NCBI GenBank assembly: GCA_000092065.1 | Contig: CP000598.1 | Direction: 5' to 3' (one strand) | From: Ostreococcus lucimarinus | Taxonomy: Eukaryota | DNA: 64,000 nt | Shown: positions 18,040-37,450 of the stretch, piece by piece | Numbering within the stretch: position 1 is the first letter of the stretch | Layout of the letters: each line of letters opens with the position of its first letter | The notes under the pieces: generated by a model | Database searches by the model: none | Told to the model about the DNA's origin: nothing | What the model saw: the letters and a program-made list of their open reading frames with translations, nothing else | Program-made: the position numbers and the translations under genes

Positions 18040-18312
18040 CCGCCGGGGTGTTTTTACCTCGTGCAACTTTTTTAGAAATCGATCACTTACAGCGACAAGC
18101 TAGTAGATGTGATACACTTCATCGGAATATCCGAAGATTTGCACGATTTGGCTGAGAAAACGAAGATTGTGGCGAACACCGATGGCGAATCGCTAACGAG
18201 GTTGCGTGAAATCACAGCAAATGCTCGCGCATTCATGCAAGAATTTACGTATGAGCGCGTCGTCACGGACGTTTCACATCGCCTGAATGAGCTAGCCCTA
18301 AGTATAGTATAG
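18040..18312 (+). pseudogene. Degenerate C-terminal fragment of a GT90 gene (duplicate of the 3' end of 9491-10696 / 26028-27245) in the opposite orientation.
   Basis: Translation ...LEID|DKLVDVIHFIGISEDLHDLAEKTKIVANTDGESLTRLREITANARAFMQEFTYERVVTDVSHRLNELALSIV matches the last ~70 aa of the GT90 paralogs, with an internal deletion after LEID. Confidence 0.8.
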
Positions 18313-18764
18313 TATCAGAAACAGAAACCTCCCGGCGACGTTTGTTCGCGAGCAAAGAAACGGCAACCTCACGAGCATCTTTGGCCACTTGAGCGCGCCA
18401 GTCTTCGTCGTCGCAAGCGGGAGCCGTCGTTGCCTCTGCTCCTCCCAGCGAGGCTGAAGATCGCTGAGAAGCCTTCTTACAACCTTTCCGTGCCGTCGAC
18501 ACGGTCGGAGACGCGCTTCGGCGCGCGCGAGGGTGCGTCATACGCGACAGAATCTGGCCCAAAAGTTAACGTGCCCATCGAGCTCCAACGGTCGTGTTCC
18601 GTCAACACCCACGCACAGAATTCAAACTTAAACGGTCGGATATCACGATACGCGGAAACATCGGTTGACTCCGCGCCGCCCGGACGCGCGCGCGGCGCGA
18701 AGTGGCGCGCGACGGCGCGACAAACGTCGACGTTAATTAAATTCATTATTTTACCCTCATACAT

Positions 18765-18860: not shown

Positions 18861-18882
18861 TCGATGGGCACGTTAACTTTTC

Positions 18883-19470
18883 GATTACGAAATATGCGAT
18901 GCTACGGCAGGGGGAGTAGCGCCCATCCCGAACACCACCATGGGAAACCCGCTATCGAGTTACACTAAATGAAAACTCAAATCTATTTTCACTTCGCGTA
19001 CGTACGCTAGGCGTGAGACTCTACACGGCGAGGTACGCTAAGTAAGATATTGAATACGATGTCCAAAGTATCGTCCCCACAGCTTCTTTGTATCGACCAG
19101 CATTTTCAATCCAGTTCAAGCGCGCTGCTTTGTTTGACGTGACGAATTGCGGCTTGAACGACACGAACATTCCATCGAAGGTTAGCGACGTTGTGTGACT
19201 CCATGTCCTCGATCGTTCGATCCCGTTGGTCTGGATGCTTCATCCAGAAAAGAGCCGTGGTTCGCGGCCATGCCGGATGCTCTCGTGCGGACGCTCTCGT
19301 GCGCACCATAGAACGCAGGTTCGGGTGGCACTTGCTCATCACGTGCCACAAGCCACAGGATTCAAAGCATGGTGGACTTTGATGCGTGAAACAGGTTCGT
19401 AGATGACAGCCGTTGTCACGAAGTCAAAGCTCTTTATCGGCGCACTTAAAGTGTATGCAGTAGACCAGAT
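18883..19470. repeat. Segmental duplicate equal to [22524-22880] joined directly to [24641-24850]. These are the flanks of the 22744-24342 gene, with the gene body absent.
   Basis: Near-identical strings run from cgattacgaaatatgcgat...ggatgcttcatccag (18883-19261 vs 22524-22879), then switch at the same point to aaaagagccgtggttcgcgg...aagtgtatgcagta (19262-19470 vs 24641-24850). Confidence 0.85.
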
Positions 19471-19954
19471 CCAAAAATAAACACAAGATAGTTTCGTCCT
19501 CGGAGCGACCTTCGGTGTAAAAGAATACAGACTGAGAGACTCACAGAACTAGCCTCTGACAGAACGTGGAGGGTAGAGGGGTCACCAGTGCTTTAACGAT
19601 CGAAAGACTTTGTCGAAGTGCCGCGTGTACATGAATTTCTGTGGTTTTATTCTCCCCGTTATCTCTGACGCGTGTCGGATCAATACCAGGTATGATATAT
19701 GGGTGAGTAATTTGTACATGAATACGGGAAGCTCGCCTAGGTTACCCCCGAAGGAGTAATCACTTTCGCGCCCCGCCGAACCGCCGTTCGTTTTCTGCGC
19801 GCCGGTGCGAGTGGCGTCAAAAGGCGCGGCGTCGCGTGGACATCGCGCGCAGCACTCGCGAACGCCCTCGAGGCGCGCGCGGTATTCGCGAGCATGTCGT
19901 CGAGATAATCTGCGAAAATCTAGACGCGCTCGACCGAGACGCCCGTCCGCCCGC

Positions 19955-21144
19955 ATGCGCATCCTTCTCACCGGTGGCGCCGGCTTCATCGGCTCGCACG
20001 TCGCCGAGCGCCTCGCGTCGAGGCATCCCGAGTACACGGTGCGCGCACGATTTCGACCCCGTGCGCGTGCGTCGAACAACGCACGGACTTTGCACCCATC
20101 TCTCGCGCGAACGACTGACCGCGAACGACTCGTCGCGCTCGACAGATTGTCATCCTGGACAAGCTCGACTATTGCTCGAGCTTGAAAAATCTCGAGCGCG
20201 CGAAAGAATGCGCGAACGTGCGGTTCGTCAAGGGCGATGTGCGTTCGTTCGATTTATTGAGTTACGTCTTGCAAAGCGAGCGCATCGACACCGTCATGCA
20301 CTTCGCCGCGCAGAGTCACGTGGACAACTCTTTCGGGAACTCGTACGAGTTCACGAAGAATAACATCGAGGGCACGCACGCGTTACTCGAGGCGTGCGTG
20401 CGAGCGCAGAAGACCGAAATTCGACGATTCCTGCACGTGTCCACGGATGAGGTATACGGGGAAAATCTCATGGATTCAAACACCGAGCACGCGTCGCTCC
20501 TGACGCCCACCAACCCGTACGCCGCGACCAAGGCGGGCGCGGAGATGCTCGTCATGGCGTATGGACGCTCGTACGGACTACCGTACATCATCACTCGCGG
20601 AAACAACGTGTATGGGCCGAATCAGTATCCAGAGAAGGCGATTCCAAAGTTTTCAATCCTCGCGAAACGCGGGGAAAAGATTTCGATACACGGCGACGGC
20701 GACGCGACGCGTTCGTACATGCACGTTGACGATGCGTCTTCGGCGTTCGATGTCATTCTCCACCGCGGGACGACGGCGCAGATTTATAACATCGGCTCGC
20801 GCGAAGAGCGGACGATCTTGTCCGTCGCTCGGGATGTCTGTAAGCTCCTCGATCGCGACCCGGAAACGACCATCGAGCACGTGAGCGATCGAGCCTTCAA
20901 CGACCGAAGATATTTCATCGATTGCTCAAAGCTTTTAGCGCTCGGATGGCGACAAGAAAAGTCCTGGGACGTCGGTCTCGCGGAAACCGTGCGTTGGTAC
21001 TCGAATAACGACTTGAGCGCCTACTGGGGCGAATTCTCACCTGCGTTGCGCCCGCACCCTTCGGCGAGCGCGGACGGTCGACGACGATCGCTCGAGTTTG
21101 ATTTCACAAACGAGCTTGATGATTGCACGACACTGGCTTTGTAA
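19955..21144 (+). CDS. dTDP/UDP-glucose 4,6-dehydratase (RmlB/RHM-N-domain type, extended SDR). Copy 1 has two exons: 19955-20038 and 20146-21144.
   Basis: Exon 1 is MRILLTGGAGFIGSHVAERLASRHPEYT. Exon 2 is IVILDKLDYCSSLKNLE...NVRFVKGDV...HFAAQSHVDNSF...YGPNQYPEKAIPKF...GDGDATRSYMHVDD, the textbook 4,6-dehydratase motifs including YxxxK and the YGPNQYPEKLIPKF box. A 107-nt GT...AG intron shifts the frame, so splicing is required. About 97% identical to copy 2 at 36260-37450. Confidence 0.8.
20039..20145 (+). other. Spliceosomal intron (GTGCGC...GACAG), 107 nt, in dehydratase copy 1.
   Basis: The insertion relative to all RmlB homologues lies exactly between HPEYT and IVVLDKL. It has GT/AG borders. 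Its length differs by 1 nt between the two paralogs while the flanking exons are conserved. Confidence 0.7.
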
Positions 21145-21887: not shown

Positions 21888-22520
21888 GTGATCTTGGGCC
21901 AGTCGCCGTCTCTGACGTTGCAACGTCGCAGAGCGAAGATGGCTACCACTCGATCGATCTTGCAAACAACGCGCGCCAGATTCGTCGGTCTGGGCCGACT
22001 CGGACTATGTACGGCTCTCAAGTGTGAACAAGCTGATTGGGATATCGTTGGTTCGGATGTCTTTCCGGCGCACGTGGACAGCATCAACGAAATCACGCTT
22101 CGTTTGACTGAGCCAAGAGTCGAGGAAGCGCTTCGATCGAGCAAACATCTGCGCGCAACTTTAAAGCTGCGTGAAGTGATCGATCGCGTCGATATGGTCT
22201 TCATCCTCGTCGCCACGCCCACTGACTCTGGAGATCAAGCGTACGACACAAGCGCGCTCAGTCGGTTTTTTGAGTGATATTAGCGACTTGAACCCCGAGA
22301 ACAAACACTTGATGATTTGAGGCACGGTGTTACCTGGCTAGATCTCGATAGGTGTAAGGTATCCTACGTCGCATATGAATCGAATTGTCCTGTGGATATC
22401 ATCGAAGAGTCCCAGCTGCTCGAAATCGCGAAACGACTCGTGCGACGGGGGAAGAAAGTGACAGTTTTCGACCGGGTGGCGATTGTTCACTTAGTGCGAG
22501 GAACGTACGGGCAGTTGTTC
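21888..22520 (+). pseudogene. UDP-sugar (UDP-glucose/GDP-mannose/UDP-ManNAc) dehydrogenase-family remnant with a large internal deletion.
   Basis: The N-terminal fragment RARFVGLGRLGLCTALK...DMVFILVATPTDSGDQAYDTSAL fits the NAD-binding domain (GxGxxG ... dvifI.VpTP ... pDls). A separate downstream frame gives ESNCPVDIIEESQLLEIAKRLVRRGKKVTVFDRVA, the C-terminal UDP-binding domain pattern (ESPA.dIIe.L...GA.V..yDP.a). About 250 central residues are missing. Confidence 0.5.
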
Positions 22521-22743
22521 GATTACGAAATATGCGATACTACGGCAGGGGGAGTAGCGCCCATCCCGAACACCACCATGGAAAACCCGCTATCGAGTTA
22601 CACTAAATGAAAACTCAAATCTATTTTCACTTCGCGTACATACGCTAGGCGTGAGACTCTACATGGCGAGGTACGCCAAGTAAGATATTGAATACGATGT
22701 CCAAAGTATCGCCCCCACAGCTTCTTTGTATCGACCAGCATTT

Positions 22744-24342
22744 TCAATCCAGTTCAAGCGCGCTGCTTTGTTTGACATGACGAATTGCGGCTTGAACGAC
22801 ACGAGCATTCCATCGAAGGTTAGCAACGTTGTGTGACTCCATGTCCTCGATCGTTCGATCCCGTTGGTCTGGATGCTTCATCCAGTTGCTCATGAGTTCC
22901 ACAGCATGCTCGGCACTGTCGAAATACGTCACATGCGGGGTGGTGTAAAGGTCACCTAATGATACCCATTGTTTCAGCGCTTCAGGATCGCATGAATTTG
23001 GATCATGACATACCCCAGTATCGTCAAGACAGCAGAACTCCACTGCCTCAGCGTTTTCGTAAAAAGATGGTGAAGCACAAGGGACATTACCAGCTACTTT
23101 GTGAGGATAGCCACGGTTTTTTGAAAACTCATCGAGCATGAAAGTCAACGATGGCACGAAAAGGGGGACACCACTCGCGTAAAGTTCATGAAATGCGGAA
23201 CTCGGCATACTGTATGGGAAATATACTACGGCTTGCTCTGTTGCAAATTCCGAAGCGTGAGCAAAACTCGTTGGGCGACTTTTCATGGGAACTTGTGACT
23301 CCATAGTGCGCCCGAGGACTCGTATTCTATCAAATGTAATCGATATGCTTGAACTACCTTCGTTGTTCGACCCCCCCCACAAGATGAAGCATGACTCGTT
23401 CGTAAGTGTACGCGATGCGCCCAAACTCTCCAAATACTGTGTTGGCCATGTTATGAATAGACGTTCAGGTTCACGACATGTGTAGAACTTCATGTATGCC
23501 CGATCGTACTCGCTCCCAGCAAGAAGTATTGGCGCCTCGCGTAGAACGCGCATGAGGCTTTTACGTACAAATGACGTGTGATTTATCTTCGAATGAGCCA
23601 CCTGGTGATCAAAACGATGCGTTGTGCGTACTATCAATTTATGTGGGGCAATCTTGTTTAATAGAAGACAAAGGGCGGTAGGAAAGTCCGCCCAGAGCAC
23701 ATGGAACGTAGATAGCATCTCGCTAGCCTCAGCTGCGAAATCATCCAACCATTTCTCGTCTGCTGGATCGATAGCCATGGGAAAACCTCTTACACGCTGT
23801 GTCAATCGATTCAAAGCCTCAGATAATGCATGATCTCTTACGCAAGGAGCAGAATCGAGGACTTTCTCGTACCAAATAATGCCTCCACACACGATATTTT
23901 CGCGACGAACTCCAGCGTTATGAAGTTGCATCGCTGTGTCTTTCGCGGTACCACCATGCCAACTTAAAACCAAGACGCGGGTGCTCTGTGTATCCAAATT
24001 AGCTGACGCTTGTAATCTTGCAGGTGATTCTTCATATCGTTCCATCTTGAAATGTTCATCGTTCCTCTCTTCGACATTTGCGGTTTTGTAGGTTTCGTTA
24101 TGTGTGAGCTCTAAAAATCTTGCTCGGTGATTTTGTTGTCGTCTTTGCTCCGGTGATGGATGTGGTGTGATACTTTTAAATCTGCTGTCACCAATATCGA
24201 ACAAGAACAGTCTCCAAAGCAACACGGCCACAACCGCAAACAGAATGACCGTTCGGCGAGCCATAGTACCGGAATCGCAAGCTACTTTCAGTAGCATGTC
24301 GAAGCGCAACTCCAAGAGCGTTCGAACGTGAATCGTATTCAC
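22744..24342 (-). CDS. Putative GT-B-fold glycosyltransferase (GT1/GT4-like C-terminal motif), membrane anchored.
   Basis: 532 aa. TM VILFAVVAVLLWRLFLF. The C-terminal region AVVYFPYSMPSSAFHELYASGVPLFVPS resembles the GT4 C-terminal sugar-donor binding pattern. It is distantly similar to 28783-30459. Confidence 0.55.
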   Translation of the reverse strand: MNTIHVRTLLELRFDMLLKVACDSGTMARRTVILFAVVAVLLWRLFLFDIGDSRFKSITPHPSPEQRRQQNHRARFLELTHNETYKTANVEERNDEHFKMERYEESPARLQASANLDTQSTRVLVLSWHGGTAKDTAMQLHNAGVRRENIVCGGIIWYEKVLDSAPCVRDHALSEALNRLTQRVRGFPMAIDPADEKWLDDFAAEASEMLSTFHVLWADFPTALCLLLNKIAPHKLIVRTTHRFDHQVAHSKINHTSFVRKSLMRVLREAPILLAGSEYDRAYMKFYTCREPERLFITWPTQYLESLGASRTLTNESCFILWGGSNNEGSSSISITFDRIRVLGRTMESQVPMKSRPTSFAHASEFATEQAVVYFPYSMPSSAFHELYASGVPLFVPSLTFMLDEFSKNRGYPHKVAGNVPCASPSFYENAEAVEFCCLDDTGVCHDPNSCDPEALKQWVSLGDLYTTPHVTYFDSAEHAVELMSNWMKHPDQRDRTIEDMESHNVANLRWNARVVQAAIRHVKQSSALELD

Positions 24343-25205
24343 ATATATTCGTGTTCAAGACTACGTACGTGCCGTACCGCGAGTCGCTTCAACGCGTGCC
24401 ACAATCGCAAGCGCCACACACTCGAGACAATTCCCGCACATTTTTTGAGGAGCTTTTTAATCGAGTTTGGTGTTGTGTCTATACATGGACAGTCACACTT
24501 TTCCCAAAATTAGCCCTAAAATGTGGAGAGCTCGAATTAAACGTTCCGTTTCGATGATGATGACAAAATTAGTCGAAGGAAAAAACGCCCGAACAAATCA
24601 TACACATACAAATCATATACATCGTACACATACAAAAAAGAGCCGTGGTTCGCGGCTATGCCGGATGCTCTCGTGCGCACCATAGAACGCAGGTTTGGGT
24701 GGCACTTGCTACTTGCTCATCACGCGCCACAAACCGCAGGGTTCAAAGCATGGTGGACTTTGATGCGTGAAACAGGTTCGTAGATTCCAGCCGTTGTCAC
24801 GACCTCAAAGCTCTTTATCGACGCACTTAAAGTGTATGCAGTATGATATTAGGGTGAGTAATTTATACATGAAATTTATCTCAACTTCGTGCGAGATCCG
24901 AGGAAACGACGAGCACGGTGGCTAAGATGTGAAAGATCTGTGATTATATCATGGATAGATATTAAATCAAAAGATCTGGCCACCAGCGCATCAGACACGC
25001 GGTGAGTTGGTGACAGCGTTGAAACGTGAACATGGTTGAGCTTACCTCGCGTAGCTTGATAACGGGTTGCCAGCAGAAGTATTTGGTTCTTCGTTAGGTA
25101 CTTTGTATGCTCCGTAGGTAAACATACGCCCGTAAGCGCGGCGTACGAGCTCGATGATGGCGGGTCGATCGTGATGTTCCGGACGTCGTACCTCTCGAAA
25201 CGACG

Positions 25206-25985
25206 ATGGGCACGAGAACGGACATCGTTTCGAGAGTGTGCGATGCGACGTCGTTACCGAAAAATGTTTACACGAGAAACGGCGGAAAAGCGACGAAAAA
25301 TAGTAAGTGGGCGTCGCTTTCGCGAGCTAAACTCGATGTGGTGGAGGACTTGATGCTTCACGGAGTCGGACCCGTGGTCTGGATCGACCTCGACACGCTC
25401 GTTTTCGTGGACTTGGCGCGCGCGTTTCAGCGCGGCGCGTCGACGTGGTTAGTAGGTTATCAGAGAGGAATGCAGTGTACCGGCTTGAAGAGTTGCGTTG
25501 GGTCACACTTTCGTTCCGTGCGTCCGGAGTTTGACGTGCTCGGCGACTTGTGGTCGCTCGATTTAGCCGCAATAGAGAAAGTGAGAGATTACGAACGCCG
25601 ATGGGTGTCGTCGCGATGGGTAAGAAAGCCGCCAAAGTACGATCTCCAGGCGTATTTCAGTCTCATGCTCGAAAATGGTGTACTGGCCGAGAACGTTTTG
25701 CTTCACAACATTCTACCGGACCTCAATTTTGGTTTCACGTGCTCAAACTTTGAGCACCCAACGTCGACTAATATGGAAATTTCTGTCGATAGCGACGACG
25801 CACAGCGTCTGAGGTGCCCTATTCCAAAAGGCGTGAAAATGTCACCGCGAGTAGGAACTCTTTCGTTCACCGCGTGGTCGTTTCAAAAGATGTTTTTGGA
25901 TGAAGAAAAGCCGACGTTTGATTCGCTTTCTGACGATCAAGATGTTCGCGCTTGGTTCGCGCGATGGTTTTACTCGCCGCTCTGA
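25206..25985 (+). CDS. Stand-alone paralog of the DxD-type N-terminal domain of 6042-8318. Probably 5'-truncated.
   Basis: 259 aa and co-linear with residues ~150-400 of the 6042-8318 protein. The homology continues upstream of the annotated Met (DVVPLETT vs GVIPLKTT) until an in-frame TGA at 25155-25157. So either this copy is truncated or the call starts internally. Confidence 0.5.
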   Translation: MGTRTDIVSRVCDATSLPKNVYTRNGGKATKNSKWASLSRAKLDVVEDLMLHGVGPVVWIDLDTLVFVDLARAFQRGASTWLVGYQRGMQCTGLKSCVGSHFRSVRPEFDVLGDLWSLDLAAIEKVRDYERRWVSSRWVRKPPKYDLQAYFSLMLENGVLAENVLLHNILPDLNFGFTCSNFEHPTSTNMEISVDSDDAQRLRCPIPKGVKMSPRVGTLSFTAWSFQKMFLDEEKPTFDSLSDDQDVRAWFARWFYSPL

Positions 25986-26027
25986 AAGAATTCGGCAGTA
26001 GTTGTCGCTAGATCGTAATATTTAATA

Positions 26028-27245
26028 CTATACCATACCTAAGGCGAGCTCATTCAGACGATGGGAAACGCCCTTGACGACGCGCTCGTACGTAAATTCT
26101 TGCATCAACGCGCGAGCATTTGCTGTGATATCACGCAACTTCGTTAGCGATTCGCCATCGGTGTTCGTGATAATCTTCGTTTTTTCCACTAAATCGTGCA
26201 AATCTCCAGATATTCCGATGTAATGTATCCCATCTACCAGCTTGTCGCTGTAATAGTGCTTGAAGTTTGACTTGACGAGGAACAGGACGCTCCCGCTTTC
26301 CATGCGCCAACGGTTTCCCCACGCGTCGACGTTTCCGTCGATTTCGAGGATACCTTTGTGCGTGATCCAATGCTGTTCCGATACGCGCGGGCTAATACGT
26401 ACATTCTTTTGTCCTCTACACGATTGTACCCTTCGCGTGATCTCGAGGTCGAGCCAAGGAACATTTATGGATGATTGCACCGCTCGCACGCGCGGAAGTT
26501 TAACGCACGCGGTAACCCTTTCGTTCCCGTCGACGCGAGTGGACTCTTCTACTTCGCATTTTGTTGACATACCGGACGTCGAGCCTCTCCAGAACACGTC
26601 GGATTTGCGTTCATCGAACGGAATCTCGCGTTCACGCAGGTTCCGAAGGAACAGTTTGAACCCGTCGCGCTTGATGAAGTGGAAGTTTGGCGCGAGCACG
26701 ACTGATTCGTCGGTGAAACAATTCGCATTGATAGAGTGCGCCAGGATGAAAACATTCAAGGATTTCAGCTCCCGTTGCAGCTTCCTCGGTAGAGACGCGT
26801 CGTCGTCAATCACCCATAGGAGTCGTATAGCTACGCCGCTTCGTTCTCCGCGATTCTTCCGCTGTTCCGAGGCGACGTCTCGGAGAAACCGCAGGGCACT
26901 TTTAAAGTAGCTACGATTCAGCGGTTGACGCCTACGTGCGACGAAGGTGTACGAAGACGGGGAAGATGCTTCCGGATGAAAGGTGAAACACGCGACGTCT
27001 TTGCCCAAGCCACGTAAACTGGATTTCAGCATTCGTTCCCTCACGTCGCCGCAGCAGTTCCGACAGTGCGTCCAAGCGTCTTCTCGTATCCAAAGTGCAC
27101 TGAAACTACCCAGCAAGTCCGCGATCGTGCGCGTGACGATCATGTATGATGACGAGAAACAAAAGCAGAGCAATAGAAGCAAACCAACTCGTCGCGCTCG
27201 TGTCTTCGCCATCGGCCCGCGTGTACGAAAGGAACAAACGTCCAA
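26028..27245 (-). CDS. GT90-family glycosyltransferase (CAP10/POGLUT-like). Copy 2.
   Basis: 405 aa with the same motifs as 9491-10696 (FWRGSTSGM, ILEIDGNVDAWGNRWRMESGSVLFLVKS, HYIGISGDLHDLVEKTKI). N-terminal TM RVGLLLLLCFCFSSSYMIV. Confidence 0.75.
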   Translation of the reverse strand: MDVCSFRTRGPMAKTRARRVGLLLLLCFCFSSSYMIVTRTIADLLGSFSALWIREDAWTHCRNCCGDVRERMLKSSLRGLGKDVACFTFHPEASSPSSYTFVARRRQPLNRSYFKSALRFLRDVASEQRKNRGERSGVAIRLLWVIDDDASLPRKLQRELKSLNVFILAHSINANCFTDESVVLAPNFHFIKRDGFKLFLRNLREREIPFDERKSDVFWRGSTSGMSTKCEVEESTRVDGNERVTACVKLPRVRAVQSSINVPWLDLEITRRVQSCRGQKNVRISPRVSEQHWITHKGILEIDGNVDAWGNRWRMESGSVLFLVKSNFKHYYSDKLVDGIHYIGISGDLHDLVEKTKIITNTDGESLTKLRDITANARALMQEFTYERVVKGVSHRLNELALGMV

Positions 27246-28782: not shown

Positions 28783-30459
28783 GTGCGAAGCGAAGTGTCG
28801 GCGCGTGGTGGGCGAAAACAACGAAGGATGTCCGCGCGGCGACGAGCGCGCTTCCCGGTGACGTCGTGGACTTCTGGAGACGCCGCGCGGTGGAGTTTTT
28901 ATGCATGCGCCTTTTGCGCGCTCCTCGTGTTGCGCTCGAGCGCTCGTCGAGGCGTCGAAACCGCGTCGAGCAAATATACGCATACGCGAGACTTTGAGCA
29001 CAAAAGTCGAACACCAGAGACGGTGGTGTGGTCGACGGATTTGCACGCCGGTCCAATCGGATGTCAAGTATCGATGTTTGCGACGCTAAACATCGACGTC
29101 GAAGCGGAAGTGGATGTTCCGAATTGCAAATATTTCCAAAACGGCAGAGGCGAAAACCTTTGCGCCTCGGGTCGGGGTCTTCGAAACGATCAAAATCGTG
29201 GATTTTCTCTCGACCCTCACCCGAACAACACGCGACGAAGACTTTATACGCACTTTAGTGCAAACGGGGATTTTTCGCGTGCAGATGTTGTGTTTTGTTC
29301 GCACCCGGCGGCGAACTGCGAAATATATTTACCGTTTGATAAATCGATTCTGATTTACAACACGCAGAGACTAGAATTCGGTCGAGACGACGAATTCATT
29401 TGGTGGCGAGAACCAATCATTGGAGCAGATAGACGCGAGCGCTGGGAGCATTGGGTACACAATTTGAAAGCCATCTCACGGTCGAAGGCCAACGTCGTGG
29501 CGGCGAATAACATGTACGACGTCACGCACATGGAGTACTTCACAGGCATCGAGACAAAATACATTCCTTCGTGGTGCGGTGGTCTCCCGCGAGAGATCGT
29601 GGAGAAAAGTTCATATCGACCTCAGCACAGGGAGATTGTTCTCACGCCGTACCGAGTTAATCTGGAGTATGCGAAAGAGACGATTCCCGAGAGAGGCTGG
29701 CCAGACCAACGTCGTAAGATGTATAAAAATCCATTGACGCACCCGATATTCGATGATCTTATGCAGCTTAAATCGAGATTTGAGCTCATCAGCATGAAAC
29801 AAGCATTTCCAAAACATGGAAAATTCAAAAGTATCCATGACTTTCAAAACTTTCGCGCCGTCGTGCTGATTCCGTATGTACCCTCGACGATGTTCTTCTT
29901 TCAGCTTTATCGCGCGTGCGTACCGATTTTGGTGCCTTCGCGCAAATTGCTGGCGCGTTGGGTCGCCGAGCACGGCATACTTTGGGAAACTTCATACGGA
30001 GATCCTGTGCGCGTCAATGAGACGATGCACTCGCACTTGTCAAATCCAAGTAATTTTGACGCCGTGAGCAGGGAGCGTTGGATGGAGTTCTACGACGTGT
30101 ATCAAACTGAAGTGTTTCCACATATTTTGTACTTTGACAACTGGGAACGCGCTGCACAGATAGTTGAAAGCACAAATTTAGAAACTGTTTCCGAAAACAT
30201 GCGACTTCACAACGTGAACGAGTTTCATCGCATCAGAAATTTATGGCGTGGCACGTTCGAGCAGATGGCTACGAACAGGAAAGCTCGCGGTGGATCGGTG
30301 TCAGCGACTAGAGAATCGCAGCCACGTGTGCTTTCTGTAGACATAAACACTGCGTTGATGCGCCAGTACGAGCTCGAACCGCTTTCATTCGCGACTGAGA
30401 GCGAGGTATTGGGCTTTTTCAGTCGAATTACTCGGGGTGGTATTTTCGGTCGTCGATGA
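28783..30459 (+). CDS. Putative GT-B-fold glycosyltransferase, membrane anchored.
   Basis: 558 aa. TM WSFYACAFCALLVL. FRAVVLIPYVPSTMFFFQLYRACVPILVPS parallels the C-terminal motif of 22744-24342. Confidence 0.5.
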   Translation: MRSEVSARGGRKQRRMSARRRARFPVTSWTSGDAARWSFYACAFCALLVLRSSARRGVETASSKYTHTRDFEHKSRTPETVVWSTDLHAGPIGCQVSMFATLNIDVEAEVDVPNCKYFQNGRGENLCASGRGLRNDQNRGFSLDPHPNNTRRRLYTHFSANGDFSRADVVFCSHPAANCEIYLPFDKSILIYNTQRLEFGRDDEFIWWREPIIGADRRERWEHWVHNLKAISRSKANVVAANNMYDVTHMEYFTGIETKYIPSWCGGLPREIVEKSSYRPQHREIVLTPYRVNLEYAKETIPERGWPDQRRKMYKNPLTHPIFDDLMQLKSRFELISMKQAFPKHGKFKSIHDFQNFRAVVLIPYVPSTMFFFQLYRACVPILVPSRKLLARWVAEHGILWETSYGDPVRVNETMHSHLSNPSNFDAVSRERWMEFYDVYQTEVFPHILYFDNWERAAQIVESTNLETVSENMRLHNVNEFHRIRNLWRGTFEQMATNRKARGGSVSATRESQPRVLSVDINTALMRQYELEPLSFATESEVLGFFSRITRGGIFGRR

Positions 30460-30800
30460 AGCACGCCGTAGAGGAACCGCTCGTTTTAATCAGCGCTCTG
30501 AGACTGTGTAAAAGTCGATGTTGATTTACATTAATGTACTAGCGCATAAATAGGTCGTATTTTTAGCTTTGTCGATATTCAAAATATTGTGACACAAGTT
30601 CCTGGGTCGCGAGCGAATAGACAGACTGTTCGCATTCACTACCGACTGCGAGGATGTCGCGGACGCTGATTCCGTTGTTTTCTTCAAACAAATCGAACAC
30701 GTCTTTCGGTTGGGTGTGCGTTTCGAACTCCCCACGATGCGTGTGCACGTCGAGCAGGCGCGCGCGCTCACGCACGAAAGCCAACGATGACCACGCGTCG

Positions 30801-31075
30801 CGCGCGCGCGGCGCAGAGTGCGCGTCGACGAGCCGAGCAAATGTCTCGCGCCGCGCCGCGCACGTTTTGTGTGCGTCCATCTCATCACGTGATGCCCTAT
30901 AAATTCGTAAAATACGATACTTGCGACGTACAAGACGAACGGTGTTTTTATAAATTGTGGCGACGTTTTCGCCCAGGGATATTTCGCGCCCGTCGCGTCG
31001 CCGCGGTCATGGCGGTCGCGCGCTCGTTACGTACCGACGCCGTCGCGCGCGATGTCACAGGCGAACGGAAAGCGC
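30801..31075. repeat. Direct repeat copy 1 (about 275 bp, about 90% identical to 31402-31690), downstream of the cold-shock gene.
   Basis: gcgcgcggcgcagagtgcgcgtcgacgagccgagcaaatgtctcgcgccgcgccgcgcacgttttgtgtgcgtccatctcatcacgtgat...ttataaattgtggcgacgtttt... recurs 601 bp downstream. Confidence 0.85.
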
Positions 31076-31372
31076 GGGCTCCGCGGTACCGGTCTTCGCC
31101 TCGCCCTTGAGTAACCGGTTCCGTTGCCGCCGCTTCGGCGCCCCTTTCACCGCCGCGCCGTTCGGCCCGGTCACGTTCACGGCCACGGGCCTCCCGTCGG
31201 CGTTGCTGACTTCGTACTCAACCTCCTCGTCCTCCCACGCCGACCGGAACCCCGCGCGCGAGATCCCCGTTTGGTGCACGAATATCTCTTCGCTTCCGTC
31301 GTGCGGTGTGATGAACCCGAATCCTTTCGTGACGTTGAACCATTTCACCTTCCCGCGCGCGCGCGCGCCCAT
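31055..31372 (-). CDS. Cold-shock-domain protein (CspA/Y-box type CSD).
   Basis: MGARARGKVKWFNVTKGFGFITPHDGSEEIFVHQTGI...EGEEVEYEVSNADGRPVAVNVTGPNG. RNP1 (KGFGFI) and RNP2 (IFVHQ) motifs are present, followed by a short basic tail. Confidence 0.8.
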   Translation of the reverse strand: MGARARGKVKWFNVTKGFGFITPHDGSEEIFVHQTGISRAGFRSAWEDEEVEYEVSNADGRPVAVNVTGPNGAAVKGAPKRRQRNRLLKGEAKTGTAEPALSVRL

Positions 31373-31401
31373 CGCGCGCGGCGACGTCGCGTCGCCCCAC
31401 G

Positions 31402-31690
31402 CGCGCGCGGCGCGGAGTGCGCGTCGACGAGCCGAGCAAATGTCTCGCGCCGCGCCGCGCACGTTTTGTGTGCGTCCATCTCATCACGTGATTGTCTAGA
31501 AATTCGTAAAGTACGACACTTGCGACGTACAAGACGAACGGTGTTTTTATAAATTGTGGCGACGTTTTTCGCCCACCTGGGCCGCGGTGGGATATTTCGC
31601 GCCCGTCGCGCGCCGCGGTCGCGCGCTCGTTACGTACCGACGCGGTCGCAGACGAACGGGAATGTCGCAGACGAACGGGAAACGCGATGG
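31402..31690. repeat. Direct repeat copy 2. It contains the 5' region and start codon of the ColD-like fusion gene.
   Basis: See copy 1. The ATG at 31662 lies inside this repeat. Confidence 0.85.
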
Positions 31691-33908
31691 CGACGGCACA
31701 GGCGACGCCGCGCGCGGGGACTGGAAGGCCGTCGTCGCCGATGAGTACGCGCGCCGCAGCGGCGTGTACGCCGCGCCCGACGAAACCTCGTTCCCGCTCA
31801 TCGCGTCGAGCATTTTTTCGGAAGAAATCATCGCCGCCGTGGACTCCATGCTCAGCGGACAGCTCACTATGGCAAATAACGTTCGCGAATTCGAGCAGGC
31901 GTTCGCAAAGTACGTCGGGGCGCCGTTCGCGGTGATGTGCAACTCTGGCAGCTCGGCGAATCTTCTCGCGCTGGCGGCGTTGACGAATCACCTGCGTTCG
32001 AAAAAGCTCTGCGCCGGGGACGAAGTGTTGATCCCGGCGGTGTGCTGGTCCACGAGTTTGTGGCCGATCGTACAAATGGGCCTGATTCCAGTGTTCGTGG
32101 ACGTGGACGTGGCGACGATGAACGTGGACTTGGACGACTTGGAAGCGAGAATCACGGATAAGACGCGAGGCGTGCTCGCGGTGCACGTCCTCGGCAACAT
32201 GTGCGATATGGACAGGCTGATGGATATTTGTGCCCGTCGCGACTTGCTCCTCGTCGAAGACACGTGCGAATCGCTGGGAAGCACGTACGGCGGGAAGTGC
32301 GTGGGGACGTTTGGGAGTTTTGGCTCGTACAGTTTTTACTTTTCCCACCACATCACCACGGGCGAAGGTGGAATGGTCGTGTGTCAGACTCAAGAAGACG
32401 CCGATCTCGTCCGATGCTTGCGCGCGCACGGCTGGACGCGCGAGCTTTCTAACAAAGATGAGTTACACGAACAAAACGCGCACATAGATTCGCGTTTCAT
32501 GTTCGTCAACGTCGGGTACAACTTGCGCCCCATGGAAATCTCTGGGGCTGTCGGGAAGTGCCAGCTTCTTCGTCTGGACTCGATGAACGCCAACAGAAAA
32601 GAAAACCGCGAGCGCTTGCTTCGAGCTCTGCAGTCGCACGATAAATGGAACGATCAATTCCGCTTCCCGGTCGCCCCGAATGCGTCCGCCGACCCGGCGT
32701 GGTTCGGCTTCGTGGCCGTGCTTCGACGCGATCTGCAGAAGCGCCTGCCGACGTATTTGGAATTTCTCACCAGACACAAGATTGAAAATCGTCCAATCAT
32801 CAGCGGTAACTTTGTGCACCAGCCGGCGATCAAAACTTTGGGATTGAGCGTTGACCCGAACGGATATCCTGGCTCGGACGAGCTGGGCACGTGCGGGTTT
32901 TTCATCGGCGTGCACACGTATCGCCTGTCGGATGCGCAGATCTCGTACCTCGCCGACACCATGCTCGCCTTCGACTTTGACTGCGCCGTGAACAGAAAAG
33001 TCGTGCTCGTGACTGGTGGCAGCGGTCTCGTCGGTCGAGCGCTCAAAGAACACGTCAAAACATCGGCGAACACAAACGATTCATGGATTTTTACATCTTC
33101 CAAAGATGCTGATTTGTGCTCTTACGACGAGACGAAGAGGCTCTTCGAGCGATATCGCCCGACGCACGTCATTCACCTCGCGGTGAAGCTCATGGCGGGC
33201 GGCGACATGTCGAAAATGGCGGCGAGTCTCATTCAGGATAACAACGCGATTAACGCTAATGTTCTTCGTTGCGCGCACGAAATCGACTGCGACAAGGTTG
33301 TCTCTGTCTTATCTTCTTTCGCTTACCCGAAAGACGTGAGTTTGCCGATCACAGAAAAGCGACTGCACGACGGTCCTTGCCATCCGTTGTATGAGTCTTA
33401 CGGTTCGTCAAAGCGTAACCTCGAAATTCTATCGCGCGCCTACCGCGCGCAACATGGTAGGAAGTTCGTCACCGTCATTCCGAGCAATATATTTGGAACC
33501 ATATCGCAACTGCGCGAGGGTGGTCCGGTCATCGACGCGCTCATGAGCAAGGCTGCGCAATCCGCGGCTACAGGTTCTGAATTCACATGCAGAGGCACCG
33601 GTGCGCCGTGCCGTCAGTTCTGCTACGCACCCGATCTAGCGCGCGTGCTCATTTGGTCTTTGGAACATTACGACGAAGAAGAGCCAATAAATGTCGCTGG
33701 GGAAGAGATCAGCATACGCGCCGTGGCGGAGCTCATCGCCAACATGTTCGGCGTCGAGAAACGCTTGTCGTTTGACGCGTCGTTTCCAGATGGGCCCATG
33801 TACCGCACGCTAAGCGATGATAAGCTCCGACGTCTGTATGAAGGTTACGAGCAAACCGATTTCGAAACGGCACTTCGAAGCGTCGTCGCACGCGTCATCA
33901 ACGCGTAA
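31662..33908 (+). CDS. Bifunctional fusion: an N-terminal DegT/ColD-type PMP-dependent GDP-4-keto-6-deoxy-D-mannose 3-dehydratase-like domain, and a C-terminal GDP-L-fucose synthase/ColC-like (GMER) 3,5-epimerase/4-reductase domain.
   Basis: 748 aa from the ATG at 31662 (the track ORF starts at a TTG). The N-domain FPLIASSIFSEEIIAAVDSMLSGQLTMANNVREFEQAFAKYVGAPFAVMCNSGSSANLLA ... SFYFSHHITTGEGGMVV is DegT-family, with His-His where aminotransferases have the Schiff-base Lys. That substitution is the ColD/E1 dehydratase hallmark, and the His falls at about 189 of the domain. The C-domain KVVLVTGGSGLVGRALKEH...SSKDADLCSYDETKRLFERYRPTHVIHLAV...YGSSKRNLEI...VIPSNIFGT...GTGAPCRQFCYAPDLARV is co-linear with GDP-fucose synthase, including YxxxK. 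Confidence 0.85.
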   Translation: MSQTNGKRDGDGTGDAARGDWKAVVADEYARRSGVYAAPDETSFPLIASSIFSEEIIAAVDSMLSGQLTMANNVREFEQAFAKYVGAPFAVMCNSGSSANLLALAALTNHLRSKKLCAGDEVLIPAVCWSTSLWPIVQMGLIPVFVDVDVATMNVDLDDLEARITDKTRGVLAVHVLGNMCDMDRLMDICARRDLLLVEDTCESLGSTYGGKCVGTFGSFGSYSFYFSHHITTGEGGMVVCQTQEDADLVRCLRAHGWTRELSNKDELHEQNAHIDSRFMFVNVGYNLRPMEISGAVGKCQLLRLDSMNANRKENRERLLRALQSHDKWNDQFRFPVAPNASADPAWFGFVAVLRRDLQKRLPTYLEFLTRHKIENRPIISGNFVHQPAIKTLGLSVDPNGYPGSDELGTCGFFIGVHTYRLSDAQISYLADTMLAFDFDCAVNRKVVLVTGGSGLVGRALKEHVKTSANTNDSWIFTSSKDADLCSYDETKRLFERYRPTHVIHLAVKLMAGGDMSKMAASLIQDNNAINANVLRCAHEIDCDKVVSVLSSFAYPKDVSLPITEKRLHDGPCHPLYESYGSSKRNLEILSRAYRAQHGRKFVTVIPSNIFGTISQLREGGPVIDALMSKAAQSAATGSEFTCRGTGAPCRQFCYAPDLARVLIWSLEHYDEEEPINVAGEEISIRAVAELIANMFGVEKRLSFDASFPDGPMYRTLSDDKLRRLYEGYEQTDFETALRSVVARVINA

Positions 33909-34940: not shown

Positions 34941-36259
34941 CGCGACGGCTGCGTGTCGTCCGCCGTCGCGCGCGATCGCGTCGTCCGGTTTCGCGTCGAC
35001 TCGAGGCCCGCCGTCTCGCGAGCCGCGCCGACGACTGACTCGCGCGCGTTTTGAATTCGTCCGTCGATTTCCGGAATTCCAAAATTCCACGTCAAAATTT
35101 TGCGCCGCGCCGCGTCCGGCTGGCGCCGCACCACTCCGCACGGGCGATCGCGCCCGGAAAGCGATCGGATCGTCGGGAAACTGATCAATAAACGACGTGC
35201 AATATTTTGATAGCATTAATATATTATTAAATATGATAATTCAGATCCGTCTGGTCATCGCAAACCCTGGATCCTTCGGACTGTGCTGATTCGACCCCCT
35301 GGAAATTTCAGACAGTTTCCCAAACGAGGCCCGTTTTTTCAAACGCCACCAGTGAGTTTTTTGAGCCCATTTGACCGACCGTGACTCAAGAACGACCCCC
35401 TCATTGTGTACATTCACTACTCTACGCGCGCGACGCGCCCGCGAACGCGCGAGAAAAGCGCACGGCGCGGTCGTACACGAACTTTTTTCTCTTCGCAGCG
35501 ACTTTTACGCGTCGAGACGTCCCAGCGACGGCTGGGGATCGCCATTTGATGCGATTTTGGACGATTTTGGCATTCGAGTCCCACGTGCTAAGTTGAGTCA
35601 TGACTCGTCAAATTTAGTAAAATTCAACACGCTTTTGCGGCGCCGTGAACGCGCACTTCGAAATAAAAACAAATTCACATCGCGTGAATCATTTGAGGTA
35701 AGCTTGAACGTTCAGAATACTCCGTGAAACTGCCTTGAACACCTTCGATTAAGATGTCAAACGTGTCGAATTTGGTACTTTTTTGTGAATTTGGGATATT
35801 TCACGCCGCGTTATCTCTCAATCGCGCGCTTTCCCCGCACGTCGGTTGACCTACACGCTCGTGAAATGTCTGAATGACCCCCTGTTTCAGGGGATCTGGA
35901 AACTGTCTGAAATTTCCAGGGGGTCGAATCCGCAAAGTCCCGGAAATTTCGAAAATTTGGATTCCTGCGCAGCGGGTGTCCCGCGATGATGATCGAAATC
36001 GTCTCGCATCATCGTATTCAGAGATGTATGAAATCTATGAAAATACGAAATGTGATTTAAATCAGTTTTTCCCGACGCCGCACCGACGTTCGTTTCTGCG
36101 CGCGCCGGTGCGCGCGGCGCCAATAGGCGAGGCGTCGCGTCGAGATCTCGTGAGCGTCGTCATCGAGCGCCCTCGAGGCGCGCGCGGTATTCGCGAGCAT
36201 GTCGTCGAGATAATCTCCGAAAATCTAGACGCGCTCGACCGAGACGCCCGTCCGCCCGC

Positions 36260-37450
36260 ATGCGCATCCTTCTCACCGGTGGCGCCGGCTTCATCGGCTC
36301 GCACGTCGCCGAGCGCCTCGCGTCGAGGCATCCCGAGTACACGGTGCGCGCACGATTTCGACCACGTGTGCGTGCGTCGAACAACGCACGGACTTTGCAC
36401 CCATCTCTCGCGCGAACGACTGACCGCGAACGACTCGTCGCGCTCGGACAGATTGTCGTCCTGGACAAGCTCGACTATTGCTCGAGCTTGAAAAATCTCG
36501 AACGCGCGAAAGAATGCGCGAACGTGCGGTTCGTCAAGGGCGATGTGCGTTCGTTCGATTTATTGAGTTACGTCTTGCAAAGCGAGCGCATCGACACCGT
36601 CGTGCACTTCGCCGCGCAGAGTCACGTGGACAACTCTTTCGGGAACTCGTACGAGTTCACGAAGAATAACATCGAGGGCACGCACGCGTTACTCGAGGCG
36701 TGCGTGCGAGCGCAGACGACCGAAATTCGACGATTCCTGCACGTGTCCACGGATGAGGTATACGGGGAAAATCTCATGGATTCAAACACCGAGCACGCGG
36801 CGCTCCTGACGCCCACCAACCCGTACGCCGCGACCAAGGCGGGCGCGGAGATGCTCGTCATGGCGTACGGACGCTCGTACGGATTGCCGTACATCATCAC
36901 TCGCGGAAACAACGTGTACGGGCCGAATCAGTATCCAGAGAAGGCGATTCCAAAGTTTTCAATCCTCGCGAAACGCGGGGAAAAGATTTCTATACACGGC
37001 GACGGCGACGTGACGCGTTCGTACATGCACGTCGACGATGCGGGTTCGGCGTTCGACGTCATTCTCCACCGCGGAACGCCGGCGCAGATTTATAACATCG
37101 GCTCGCGCGAAGAACGGACGATCTTGTCCGTCGCTCGGGATGTCTGTAAGCTCCTCGATCGCGACCCGGAAACGACCATCGAGCACGTGAGCGATCGAGC
37201 CTTCAACGACCGAAGATATTTCATCGATTGCTCAAAGCTTTTAGCGCTCGGATGGCGACAAGAAAAGTCCTGGGACGTCGGTCTCGCGGAAACCGTGCGT
37301 TGGTACTCGAATAACGATTTGAGCGCGTACTGGGGCGAATTCTCACCCGCGTTGCGCCCGCACCCTTCGGCGAGCGCGGATGGGCGACGACGATCGCTCG
37401 AGTTTGATTTCACGAATGATTCTGACGATCGCGCGACACCGACTTTGTAA
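36260..37450 (+). CDS. dTDP/UDP-glucose 4,6-dehydratase, copy 2. Here the 108-nt intron equivalent (36344-36451) is in frame and lacks stops.
   Basis: 396-aa continuous ORF. Apart from the 36-aa insert VRARFRPRVRASNNARTLHPSLARTTDRERLVALGQ between HPEYT and IVVLDKL it matches RmlB-type dehydratases end to end. About 97% nt identity to 19955-21144. Confidence 0.85.
   Translation: MRILLTGGAGFIGSHVAERLASRHPEYTVRARFRPRVRASNNARTLHPSLARTTDRERLVALGQIVVLDKLDYCSSLKNLERAKECANVRFVKGDVRSFDLLSYVLQSERIDTVVHFAAQSHVDNSFGNSYEFTKNNIEGTHALLEACVRAQTTEIRRFLHVSTDEVYGENLMDSNTEHAALLTPTNPYAATKAGAEMLVMAYGRSYGLPYIITRGNNVYGPNQYPEKAIPKFSILAKRGEKISIHGDGDVTRSYMHVDDAGSAFDVILHRGTPAQIYNIGSREERTILSVARDVCKLLDRDPETTIEHVSDRAFNDRRYFIDCSKLLALGWRQEKSWDVGLAETVRWYSNNDLSAYWGEFSPALRPHPSASADGRRRSLEFDFTNDSDDRATPTL
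36344..36451 (+). other. Intron (GT...AG, 108 nt) of dehydratase copy 2. It is in frame, so a retained-intron isoform would still be translatable.
   Basis: Positional homolog of the frame-breaking 107-nt intron in copy 1. The 36 extra residues are absent from the dehydratase family consensus. Confidence 0.65.

What the first reader, a model, noticed from the sequence alone, without database searches (positions are those of the whole stretch)
30801..31690. Cold-shock-domain gene bracketed by 275-bp direct repeats that duplicate the 5' end (including the ATG) of the ColD-like fusion gene
The structure is [repeat][CSD gene, minus strand][repeat, then the ColD-ColC gene, plus strand] with a 601-bp period. 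The downstream repeat contains the start codon and 5' region of the fusion gene. The upstream copy ends inside the 3' end of the CSD gene. This looks like a tandem duplication of a promoter module, or an insertion of a small CSD cassette with long terminal direct repeats (TRIM-like). It could place a stress-responsive RNA chaperone and the unusual-sugar gene under a shared bidirectional, duplicated promoter.
Basis: seen in the sequence. Interest (0 to 1): 0.55.

Follow-up and report, generated by a model that had tools for sequence, protein, structure and literature searches.

The report
Duplicated two-way promoter around cold-shock gene
On the small, rearrangement-prone chromosome of the marine alga Ostreococcus lucimarinus, a roughly 600-base local duplication copied the two-way promoter shared by a cold-shock-domain gene and a sugar-synthesis gene, clipping the end of the cold-shock gene and probably creating a new orphan reading frame; it is a tidy but ordinary structural variant, not a mobile element.

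Summary
Two direct copies of about 285 nt, R1 (30794-31076) and R2 (31393-31686), bracket a cold-shock-domain (CSD) gene on the minus strand, about 600 nt apart. The core is 94% identical; the whole is 84.5% with three indels. R2 carries the ATG and first 8 codons of the ColD/GDP-fucose-synthase-like fusion gene. R1 ends inside the last 7 codons of the CSD gene and supplies its stop codon.

In R1 these form the 5' end of an orphan 105-aa ORF ("geneX"). In R2 they form an upstream ORF ahead of the CSD start.

The window matches the O. lucimarinus small outlier chromosome. More than 20 independent metagenome contigs share this layout. A diverged lineage has CSD-R-ColD without R1 or geneX, and it departs from the window exactly at the R1/CSD junction, at a CGCG microhomology.

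The best reading is that CSD and ColD were an ancestral divergent pair. A local duplication then copied the promoter module, truncated the CSD tail and fused the CSD leader to new DNA. Three contigs lack the CSD and have one hybrid repeat, which indicates either repeat-mediated deletion or assembly collapse. There are no TRIM/LTR features. Interest is low to moderate.

The parts
30563..30880 (-). 'geneX': an orphan 105-aa ORF. Codons 1-30 (30791-30880) lie inside repeat R1 and are the duplicated CSD leader/uORF. Codons 31-105 are unrelated DNA.
   Evidence: ORF list. No Pfam match. Only relatives at 86% identity or more, all in this species cluster, plus one MMETSP-labelled transcript ORF. Population SNPs are 4 nonsynonymous to 1 synonymous, with several frameshift or indel variants.
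30794..31076 (.). Repeat copy R1. Contents: the minus-strand ATG (30880) plus 30 codons; two TATAAAT boxes and CACGTG; the conserved promoter block (30927-30965); and a decayed copy of the ColD 5' leader with ATG at 31052 plus 8 codons. Its right end forms the last 7 codons and the stop of the CSD ORF.
31072..31076 (.). Duplication junction. ColD codon 8-9 (antisense) is joined to the CSD 3' end at a CGCG microhomology.
   Evidence: Lineage B reads ...GAACCCGCG|ATCGAGGAG... The ColD reverse complement reads ...CCATCGCG|TTTCCCGTTCG... The window reads ...GAGCCCGCG|CTTTCCGTTCG....
31055..31372 (-). Cold-shock-domain gene, 105 aa, RNP1 KGFGFI and RNP2 IFVHQ intact. The C-terminal tail LSVRL* is supplied by R1, replacing the IEEKADGVI* seen in lineage B.
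   Evidence: Pfam PF00313 E=1e-23. Nearest named relatives are green-lineage CSD proteins at 62-67% identity. dN/dS against lineage B is 0.6 overall, with the first 47 codons nearly invariant. Within the population there is 1 synonymous and 0 nonsynonymous change.
31345..31479 (-). Upstream 44-codon ORF in R2, homologous to the geneX start. It overlaps the CSD ATG out of frame. Its frame relative to the CSD varies between haplotypes through (CG)n indels.
31354..31414 (.). (CG)n-rich tract spanning the CSD start and the left boundary of R2. It is a site of length polymorphism.
   Evidence: TRF. Inverted and direct short repeats. Frame table.
31393..31686 (.). Repeat copy R2: the working intergenic region between CSD (-) and ColD (+). 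It contains the conserved block 31526-31564 and the ColD ATG at 31662.
31645..31681 (+). A 19-nt perfect tandem duplication (GTCGCAGACGAACGGGAAT x1.9) at the ColD start. It is specific to R2 of this lineage.
   Evidence: TRF. Comparison with R1 and with lineages B and C.
31662..33908 (+). ColD-like (PLP/PMP 3-dehydratase with the SHH motif) fused to a GDP-L-fucose-synthase/ColC-like reductase, 748 aa.
   Evidence: Pfam DegT 5.5e-79 and Epimerase 3.7e-35. PDB 2GMS/3GR9 ColD E=6e-83, and GDP-fucose synthases E=5e-59.

Best explanation
This is a small segmental duplication on the hypervariable small outlier chromosome (chromosome 18) of Ostreococcus lucimarinus or a near-identical wild strain. 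It is not a mobile element.

Inferred history:
1. Ancestrally the CSD gene (minus strand) and the ColD-ColC fusion gene (plus strand) were divergent neighbours. They shared a roughly 290-nt intergenic promoter region, R.
2. One rearrangement produced a second copy of R on the far side of the CSD gene. It could have been a roughly 600-nt tandem duplication of [CSD body + R] followed by a deletion. It could equally have been a single replication template-switching event with two jumps. The copied segment runs from codon 30 of the CSD leader ORF to codon 8-9 of ColD.
3. The duplication junction, at a CGCG microhomology, cut off the last 9 CSD codons and gave the gene a new 5-codon tail and a new stop codon.
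4. At its other end the copied promoter, ATG and 30 codons were fused to unrelated DNA. This created the chimeric orphan ORF 'geneX', which sits next to its own promoter copy.

Consequences:
- R2 remains the working CSD/ColD promoter.
- The leftward half of R1 faces geneX.
- The rightward half of R1 is decaying but keeps an intact core block that now points antisense into the CSD gene.
- The two direct repeats are a substrate for looping out the CSD gene.

What is shown and what is inferred: the anatomy, its recurrence across many metagenome assemblies and the lineage comparison are shown. The polarity of events is inferred, as is any transcription from a given promoter copy.
For: Organism and chromosome:
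- The exact CSD cluster includes O. lucimarinus CCE9901 XP_001422318.1, on a 149,386-bp record.
- The O. lucimarinus SOC is chromosome 18, 150 kb (PMC5082852 Table 1).
- The window holds about 10 other segmental duplications.

Structure:
-.
- The same layout occurs in more than 20 independent contigs at 99.5-99.99% identity.

Polarity:
- Lineage B (L014, L025-L027, L030-L031; 83-86% identical) has ColD-R-CSD with the leader part of R upstream of the CSD. It has no R1 and no geneX within 2.6 kb downstream. Its own CSD end is ...AEPAIEEKADGVI*.
- Lineage B and the window diverge exactly at the R1 boundary, at CGCG.
- R1 and R2 are closer to each other (84.5-94%) than either is to R of lineage B (75-86%).
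- Each of R1 and R2 keeps different B-like ancestral states.

geneX as the derived partner:
- It is an orphan with no diverged homologue.
- Its SNP pattern is weakly constrained and it has frameshift variants.
- Its first 30 codons use the same frame as the in-frame leader of the lineage-B CSD.

CSD as a real gene:
- Pfam match.
- Conserved RNP motifs, with substitutions in the first 47 codons mostly synonymous.

Promoter module:
- The block ACTTGCGACG..CAAGACGAACGGTG.TTTTA.AAATTGTGGCGACGTTTT is conserved upstream of ColD in lineages A, B and C.
Against: - The ancestral position of the geneX body could not be found in lineage B, so the second junction (...GCGTGG|TCATCG..., about 30789-30794) is unexplained in detail.
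- The left third of the repeat is 99% identical between copies while the right part is about 85% identical. This implies gene conversion or unequal constraint, and it weakens any clock-based dating of the duplication relative to the lineage split.
- Lineage B is known only from contigs of 3.3 kb or less, and its chromosome is rearranged relative to the window.
- No strand-specific transcript data were available, so promoter use is inferred from position and conservation only.
Confidence: 0.62

Rival explanations
1. Insertion model. geneX and ColD were the ancestral divergent pair. A 317-nt CSD fragment (31076-31392), copied from a CSD gene elsewhere, was inserted into their shared promoter. 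About 285 nt of target was duplicated on both sides, either by fill-in of a long staggered break or by a templated insertion.
For: - Contigs with geneX-single R-ColD and no CSD exist (L011, L017, L020).
- The unique segment between the repeats is almost exactly the CSD ORF and lacks its own stop codon.
- Lineage C (L012) has ColD and a geneX remnant but no CSD.
Against: - The CSD-less contigs are 99.6-99.9% identical to the window in both flanks, far closer than R1 is to R2. Their single repeat is a clean R1-left/R2-right hybrid, so they are derived, not ancestral.
- Lineage B already has the CSD beside R-ColD, with a different and complete 3' end that breaks exactly at the R1 junction.
- No parent CSD copy closer than about 67% identity was found among 5.8 billion proteins.
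Confidence: 0.2
2. TRIM/LTR-type miniature retroelement or other mobile cassette carrying the CSD gene between terminal direct repeats.
For: Two direct repeats of about 285 nt flank a roughly 320-nt internal region, which is the size class of TRIMs.
Against: - The repeats begin ..CCACGCG/GCGCGG and end ..AAGCGCG, not TG..CA.
- The flanks (CAACGATGA | ATGGCGACG) give no target-site duplication.
- The internal region starts GGCTCCGCGG and ends ..GTCGCGTCGCC, so there is no tRNA primer-binding site or polypurine tract.
- There are only two copies in 64 kb and none in IMG/VR.
- Both repeat ends are the native 5' coding ends of flanking genes, and R2 runs on seamlessly into ColD.
Confidence: 0.02
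3. The duplication is an assembly artefact, or the CSD-less form is the only real one.
For: Assemblers do struggle here. Three scaffolds have N-gaps inside R2 (L004, L007, L029), and some contigs collapse to one repeat.
Against: - R1 and R2 differ by three indels and more than 15 substitutions.
- The two-copy layout is recovered by different assemblers in more than 20 samples. It is also implied by the finished CCE9901 genome, which annotates the CSD.
Confidence: 0.02

Closest known systems
Structural hypervariability of the Mamiellales small outlier chromosome (SOC): duplications, deletions and translocations, with NHEJ/microhomology junctions
   Same: - Same chromosome type: O. lucimarinus chr18, about 150 kb, lower GC, rich in sugar-modification genes (PMC5082852).
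- A 4-nt microhomology at a rearrangement junction, as reported for an O. mediterraneus SOC fusion (PMC13390643).
- The window is a patchwork of other duplicated segments.
   Different: Published cases are tens to hundreds of kb and were seen in virus-resistant laboratory lines. This is a 0.6-kb event that recurs across many natural-sample assemblies. It specifically copies a promoter plus two start codons.
Chimeric or new genes formed by partial tandem duplication (a duplicated promoter and 5' coding end fused to unrelated sequence), as described in Drosophila and other eukaryotes (own knowledge)
   Same: A duplicated promoter, ATG and 30 codons are joined to unrelated DNA. The result is a lineage-restricted ORF of 105 codons that appears weakly constrained.
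   Different: Whether geneX makes a protein is unknown. The donated 5' part is a leader/uORF of the CSD gene rather than a conserved protein domain.
Microhomology-mediated break-induced replication / fork stalling and template switching (own knowledge)
   Same: The event is a duplication plus replacement with short GC-rich microhomology (CGCG) at the junction that could be reconstructed. The junctions lie in (CG)n tracts.
   Different: The mechanism cannot be told apart from two successive simple events, namely an unequal exchange followed by a deletion. Only one of the two junctions can be reconstructed.
TRIM (terminal-repeat retrotransposon in miniature)
   Same: Overall geometry only: direct repeats of about 285 nt around roughly 320 nt.
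   Different: It lacks every diagnostic sequence feature and is single-copy (see the membership test).

Membership tests
TRIM / LTR retroelement | Terminal repeats begin with TG and end with CA | tested here: not met
   R1 and R2 start ..CCACGCG/CGCGCGGCGC and end ..GGAAAGCGCG / GGGAAACGCG.
TRIM / LTR retroelement | Short (about 5 bp) target-site duplication immediately outside the two repeats | tested here: not met
   The left flank is ..GCCAACGATGA and the right flank is ATGGCGACGG.. There is no matching 4-6-mer at the boundaries.
TRIM / LTR retroelement | Internal primer-binding site next to the 5' repeat and polypurine tract next to the 3' repeat | tested here: not met
   The internal segment 31077-31392 is the CSD coding sequence from end to end. 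Its ends are GGCTCCGCGGTACC and GACGTCGCGTCGCC.
TRIM / LTR retroelement | Multiple dispersed copies in the genome | tested here: inconclusive
   Only the two local copies occur in the 64-kb window, and there are none in IMG/VR. The rest of the genome was not available. All 30+ related contigs come from this one locus.
Tandem segmental duplication | Direct, collinear copies with one novel junction joining the distal end of the unit to its proximal end | tested here: met
   The junction at 31072-31076 joins ColD codon 8-9 to the CSD 3' end. Lineage B supplies the unduplicated state.
Tandem segmental duplication | The whole unit is present twice (unit = R + CSD body) | tested here: not met
   Only R is present twice. 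Where a left CSD copy would be expected, the unrelated geneX body is found. A second event (a deletion) or a two-jump template switch is therefore required.
Bidirectional promoter shared by a divergent gene pair | Head-to-head genes with start codons less than about 1 kb apart | tested here: met
   The CSD ATG is at 31372 (-) and the ColD ATG at 31662 (+), 290 nt apart.
Bidirectional promoter shared by a divergent gene pair | Arrangement and intergenic elements conserved in related lineages | tested here: met
   Lineage B keeps CSD-R-ColD. The TATA-containing block is conserved in lineages A, B and C.
Bidirectional promoter shared by a divergent gene pair | Transcription initiates in both directions from the shared region | not testable with these tools
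   No strand-specific RNA or TSS data were available. An 8.1-kb contig (L029) linked to an MMETSP transcript id covers the whole locus but gives no strand or start information.
Cold-shock domain protein (PF00313) | CSD fold signature with RNP1 (K/R-G-F-G-F-I) and RNP2 (V-F-V-H) motifs | tested here: met
   Pfam E=1e-23 over residues 6-69. KGFGFI and IFVHQ are present.
ColD (GDP-4-keto-6-deoxy-D-mannose 3-dehydratase) | DegT-family fold with His replacing the PLP-binding Lys (SHH motif) | tested here: met
   E=6e-83 to 2GMS/3GR9 ColD. The query's fshhittgegg aligns to yshhiatmegg. Enzymatic activity and the sugar product were not tested.

The most novel reading that the evidence does not exclude
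The locus could act as a natural on/off and dosage switch for an RNA chaperone on the virus-resistance chromosome, through three routes:
- The direct repeats recurrently loop out the CSD gene (the CSD-less contigs would be real alleles, 2 of the 10 places shown for geneX).
- (CG)n length changes toggle an overlapping upstream ORF in or out of frame with the CSD.
- The intact ColD-type core promoter in R1 drives an antisense RNA across the CSD gene.

Together these would make CSD expression heritably variable between cells, and possibly linked to expression of the surface-sugar gene.
Probability: 0.07. Interest if true: 0.6.

Novelty: new member of a known kind. Interest (0 to 1): 0.3.

Why it matters
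If the reconstruction is right, this is a clean, base-pair-resolved example of one small rearrangement on the Ostreococcus outlier chromosome doing three things at once. It re-tails an existing gene, gives birth to a chimeric orphan ORF placed next to a ready-made promoter copy, and leaves direct repeats that can later delete the gene between them. It shows that the chromosome's known large-scale plasticity extends down to sub-kilobase promoter shuffling in wild populations. It does not reveal a new kind of element or mechanism.

Tried and rejected
1. TRIM/LTR reading. I checked termini, target-site duplication, primer-binding site, polypurine tract and copy number. All were negative.

2. CSD-less contigs (L011, L017, L020) as the ancestral empty site. 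Rejected because their flanks are 99.6-99.9% identical to the window and their repeat is an R1-left/R2-right hybrid. Whether they are real deletions or assembly collapse could not be decided. N-gaps inside R2 in L004, L007 and L029 show the repeat does break assemblies.

3. Apparent 56-nt and 133-nt 'insertions' in R2 of L004, L007 and L029. These are scaffold N runs, not biology.

4. Search for a recent parent copy of the CSD. The nearest non-locus proteins are only 65-70% identical. P0078 (91%) has a different N-terminus, comes from a 1.1x-coverage contig, and is probably chimeric.

5. Search for the geneX body or an R1 copy downstream of the CSD in lineage B. Neither was found within 2.6 kb.

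6. Lineage-B 3' flank in the window: no match.

7. Rfam scan of 30300-31900: nothing near any gathering score.

8. The bacterial promoter/terminator scanner was not used because the organism is a eukaryote.

9. The long plus-strand ORFs antisense to the CSD (180 aa here; 983-aa 'ColD' calls in some contigs) were judged to be by-products of GC-rich sequence and prokaryotic gene callers.

Full report
**1. What is in the sequence**

The region reads, left to right on the plus strand:
- an orphan ORF, 'geneX', on the minus strand (30563-30880, 105 aa, no Pfam match);
- repeat copy R1 (about 30794-31076);
- a cold-shock-domain gene on the minus strand (31055-31372, 105 aa, PF00313 E=1e-23);
- repeat copy R2 (about 31393-31686);
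- a 748-aa fusion gene on the plus strand starting at ATG 31662.

The fusion gene's N-terminal half matches solved ColD structures (2GMS, 3GR9; E=6e-83), including the His-for-Lys SHH motif. Its C-terminal half matches GDP-L-fucose synthases (E=5e-59).

The repeat core (176 nt) is 94% identical at a spacing of 599 nt. With indels of 14, 10 and 7 nt, the homology runs 30801-31076 vs 31400-31686 at 84.5%. A 39-nt piece occurs exactly twice in the window against none expected. There is no third copy in the 64 kb.

- R2 contains the ColD ATG and 8 codons, and R1 contains their diverged copy with ATG at 31052.
- R1 ends inside the CSD ORF, whose last 7 codons and stop are the antisense of that ColD-start copy.

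**2.

The left third of the repeat carries a minus-strand ATG and 30 codons.
- In R1 these are the start of geneX (MDAHKTCAARRETFARLVDAHSAPRARDAW|SSLAF...).
- In R2 the same ATG (31479) opens a 44-codon ORF that overlaps the CSD ATG out of frame.

The repeat is therefore a complete divergent-promoter module: a start codon on each strand, two TATAAAT boxes, a CACGTG, and a conserved core block in between.

**3. Where it comes from**

The exact protein sequences are in public collections. The CSD cluster includes O. lucimarinus CCE9901 XP_001422318.1, on a 149,386-bp record. That size matches the 150-kb small outlier chromosome, chromosome 18, of that species (PMC5082852 Table 1).

That chromosome class is known for sugar-modification genes, low synteny and large rearrangements tied to virus resistance. 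The window itself contains about ten other segmental duplications, up to 1.4 kb at 94-99% identity.

**4. Population and lineage comparison**

I fetched more than 30 related contigs. They fall into four classes.

| Class | Contigs | Layout | Identity to window |
|---|---|---|---|
| A1 | L001-L010, most of L015-L024, L029 | same as the window | 99.5-99.99% |
| A2 | L011, L017, L020 | no CSD; one repeat, R1-like on the left and R2-like on the right; 599 nt shorter | flanks 99.6-99.9% |
| B | L014, L025-L027, L030-L031 | ColD-R-CSD; no R1 or geneX within 2.6 kb downstream | 83-86% here |
| C | L012 | ColD and the right half of R; only the last ~130 nt of geneX; 1.7 kb of other DNA between | 88-93% |

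A2 is either a recent recombination between R1 and R2 or an assembly collapse. It is not an old pre-duplication allele. Three scaffolds have N-gaps inside R2, so assemblers do fail here.

In lineage B the leader part of R sits upstream of the CSD, and the CSD has its own C-terminus, ...AEPAIEEKADGVI*. A different gene follows downstream. It is 79% identical to window 25173-26084.

**5. Polarity of events**

Lineage B and the window are collinear through ColD, R and the CSD. They part exactly at the right-hand end of R1:
- lineage B reads GAACCCGCG|ATCGAGG;
- the ColD start in antisense reads CCATCGCG|TTTCCCGTTCG;
- the window reads GAGCCCGCG|CTTTCCGTTCG.

This is a junction at a 4-nt CGCG microhomology.

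If the CSD had been inserted together with the duplication, lineage B would have had to lose R1 by a break at precisely the same base. It is simpler that the CSD already sat beside R-ColD, and that the duplication joined ColD codon 8-9 to the CSD 3' end. That replaced IEEKADGVI* with LSVRL*.

Three further observations are consistent with this:
- R1 and R2 resemble each other more than either resembles R of lineage B.
- Each copy keeps a different subset of B-like states. R1 keeps the GTCGCGCGCGATG start context. R2 keeps the CCGCGGTGGGA segment.
- geneX has no relative below 86% identity anywhere.

Only R is present twice. The left copy of the CSD body expected from a simple tandem duplication is absent. 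Either a second deletion fused leader codon 30 to the geneX body (junction ...GCGTGG|TCATCG), or a single template-switching event made both junctions. I could not reconstruct the second junction, because the geneX body was not found in lineage B.

**6. Are the genes real?**

- CSD. The RNP1 and RNP2 motifs are intact. Against lineage B, the first 47 codons show one amino-acid change and about four synonymous changes. Overall dN/dS is about 0.6, with changes clustered in residues 48-72. Within lineage A I saw one synonymous change and no nonsynonymous change in the CSD body. Its nearest named relatives are green-algal and plant CSD proteins at 62-67% identity.
- geneX. It shows 4 nonsynonymous changes to 1 synonymous, plus frameshift, in-frame deletion and rearranged variants. 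It looks weakly constrained. One variant carries an MMETSP transcript label, and an 8.1-kb contig linked to it spans the whole locus. That suggests transcription but gives no strand or start site.

**7. The leader**

The distance from the upstream ATG to the CSD frame varies: 123, 124 or 125 nt in lineage A and 138, 139 or 140 nt in lineage B. The variation arises through (CG)n indels. The upstream ORF is therefore sometimes fused in frame to the CSD and usually not. It is not a conserved N-terminal extension. It is best seen as a leader/uORF, and it is this leader that was donated to geneX.

**8. Mobile-element reading**

- The repeat termini are not TG..CA.
- No target-site duplication flanks the pair.
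- The internal segment is coding sequence end to end, with no primer-binding site or polypurine tract.
- The repeat is not in IMG/VR.
- Nothing in Rfam approaches threshold.

The TRIM-like idea is rejected.

**9. Verdict**

The 'tandem duplication of a promoter module' reading is essentially right, and the 'cassette with terminal repeats' reading is wrong.

The feature is one more small rearrangement on a chromosome known for them. Its points of interest are a reconstructable junction, a probable newborn chimeric ORF, and a possible presence/absence polymorphism of the CSD gene that needs long reads or PCR to confirm.

Noticed in passing
window 9220-10555 vs 25622-27092; 19758-21144 vs 36060-37450; 18880-19247 vs 22518-22885; 53024-53202 vs 58579-58757; inverted pairs 2660-3123 vs 53205-54835 and 9488-9716 / 18087-18315 / 26025-26253: The window is a patchwork of other segmental duplications, 180 nt to 1.4 kb at 85-99% identity, direct and inverted. 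Some include whole genes and their upstream regions.
   Followed up: partly
L028:1-181 joined to 175-3335 (window 30843-31023 forward, then 30766 downward): One low-coverage contig (2.5x) has the R1 promoter segment inverted relative to the geneX body. The junction lies in a palindromic CGCGCGC run, giving the ORF variant P0203. It is either a real 257-bp promoter inversion or a hairpin/chimera artefact.
   Followed up: partly
window 31354-31414 and the homologous tracts in L006, L018, L026, L027, L030, L031: (CG)n tract length differs by 1-2 nt between haplotypes in both lineages. This shifts the upstream ATG in or out of frame with the CSD, giving 140-aa and 149-aa fused forms against a 44-49-codon overlapping uORF.
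   Followed up: partly
L017:3290-3620, L020:3290-3620, L011:90-430: Three contigs from different assemblers lack the CSD and carry one hybrid repeat. Two of them are among the 10 places shown for geneX. This is a candidate natural deletion allele, not distinguishable here from repeat collapse.
   Followed up: partly
L004, L007 (about 3803-3904) and L029 (about 3212-3313): Runs of N inside R2 in scaffolds show that the repeat breaks short-read assemblies. At first sight they mimic 56-nt and 133-nt insertions.
   Followed up: yes
window 30957-31499 (+) and gene calls P0037 (983 aa), P0038, P0040: A long open frame runs antisense to the CSD. In strains with TAT instead of TAG at 31497-31499 it continues in frame into ColD. 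Prokaryotic gene callers therefore report 805-983-aa 'ColD' proteins. This is probably a GC-rich antisense-ORF artefact.
   Followed up: partly
L012:6290-7956 (lineage C): Between the geneX remnant and the ColD promoter, this strain has 1.7 kb of different DNA with two ORFs (182 and 114 aa). Its last 335 nt resemble window 53023-53342 (79%).
   Followed up: no
L013:735-1040 (protein P0078): A CSD variant whose first ~25 residues differ ([25 protein letters not shown]...) is joined to the exact Ostreococcus CSD C-terminal part. It sits on a 1.1x-coverage contig and is probably an assembly chimera.
   Followed up: no
window 1-148 and 55356-55499: Short tandem repeats. A 56-nt period lies at the very start of the window. 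A 72-nt unit, two copies at 94%, lies inside the 1310-aa ORF at 53214-57146.
   Followed up: no
window 31645-31681: A perfect 19-nt tandem duplication lies immediately upstream of and including the ColD ATG. It is absent from R1 and from lineages B and C, and it changes the ColD 5' leader in this lineage.
   Followed up: yes
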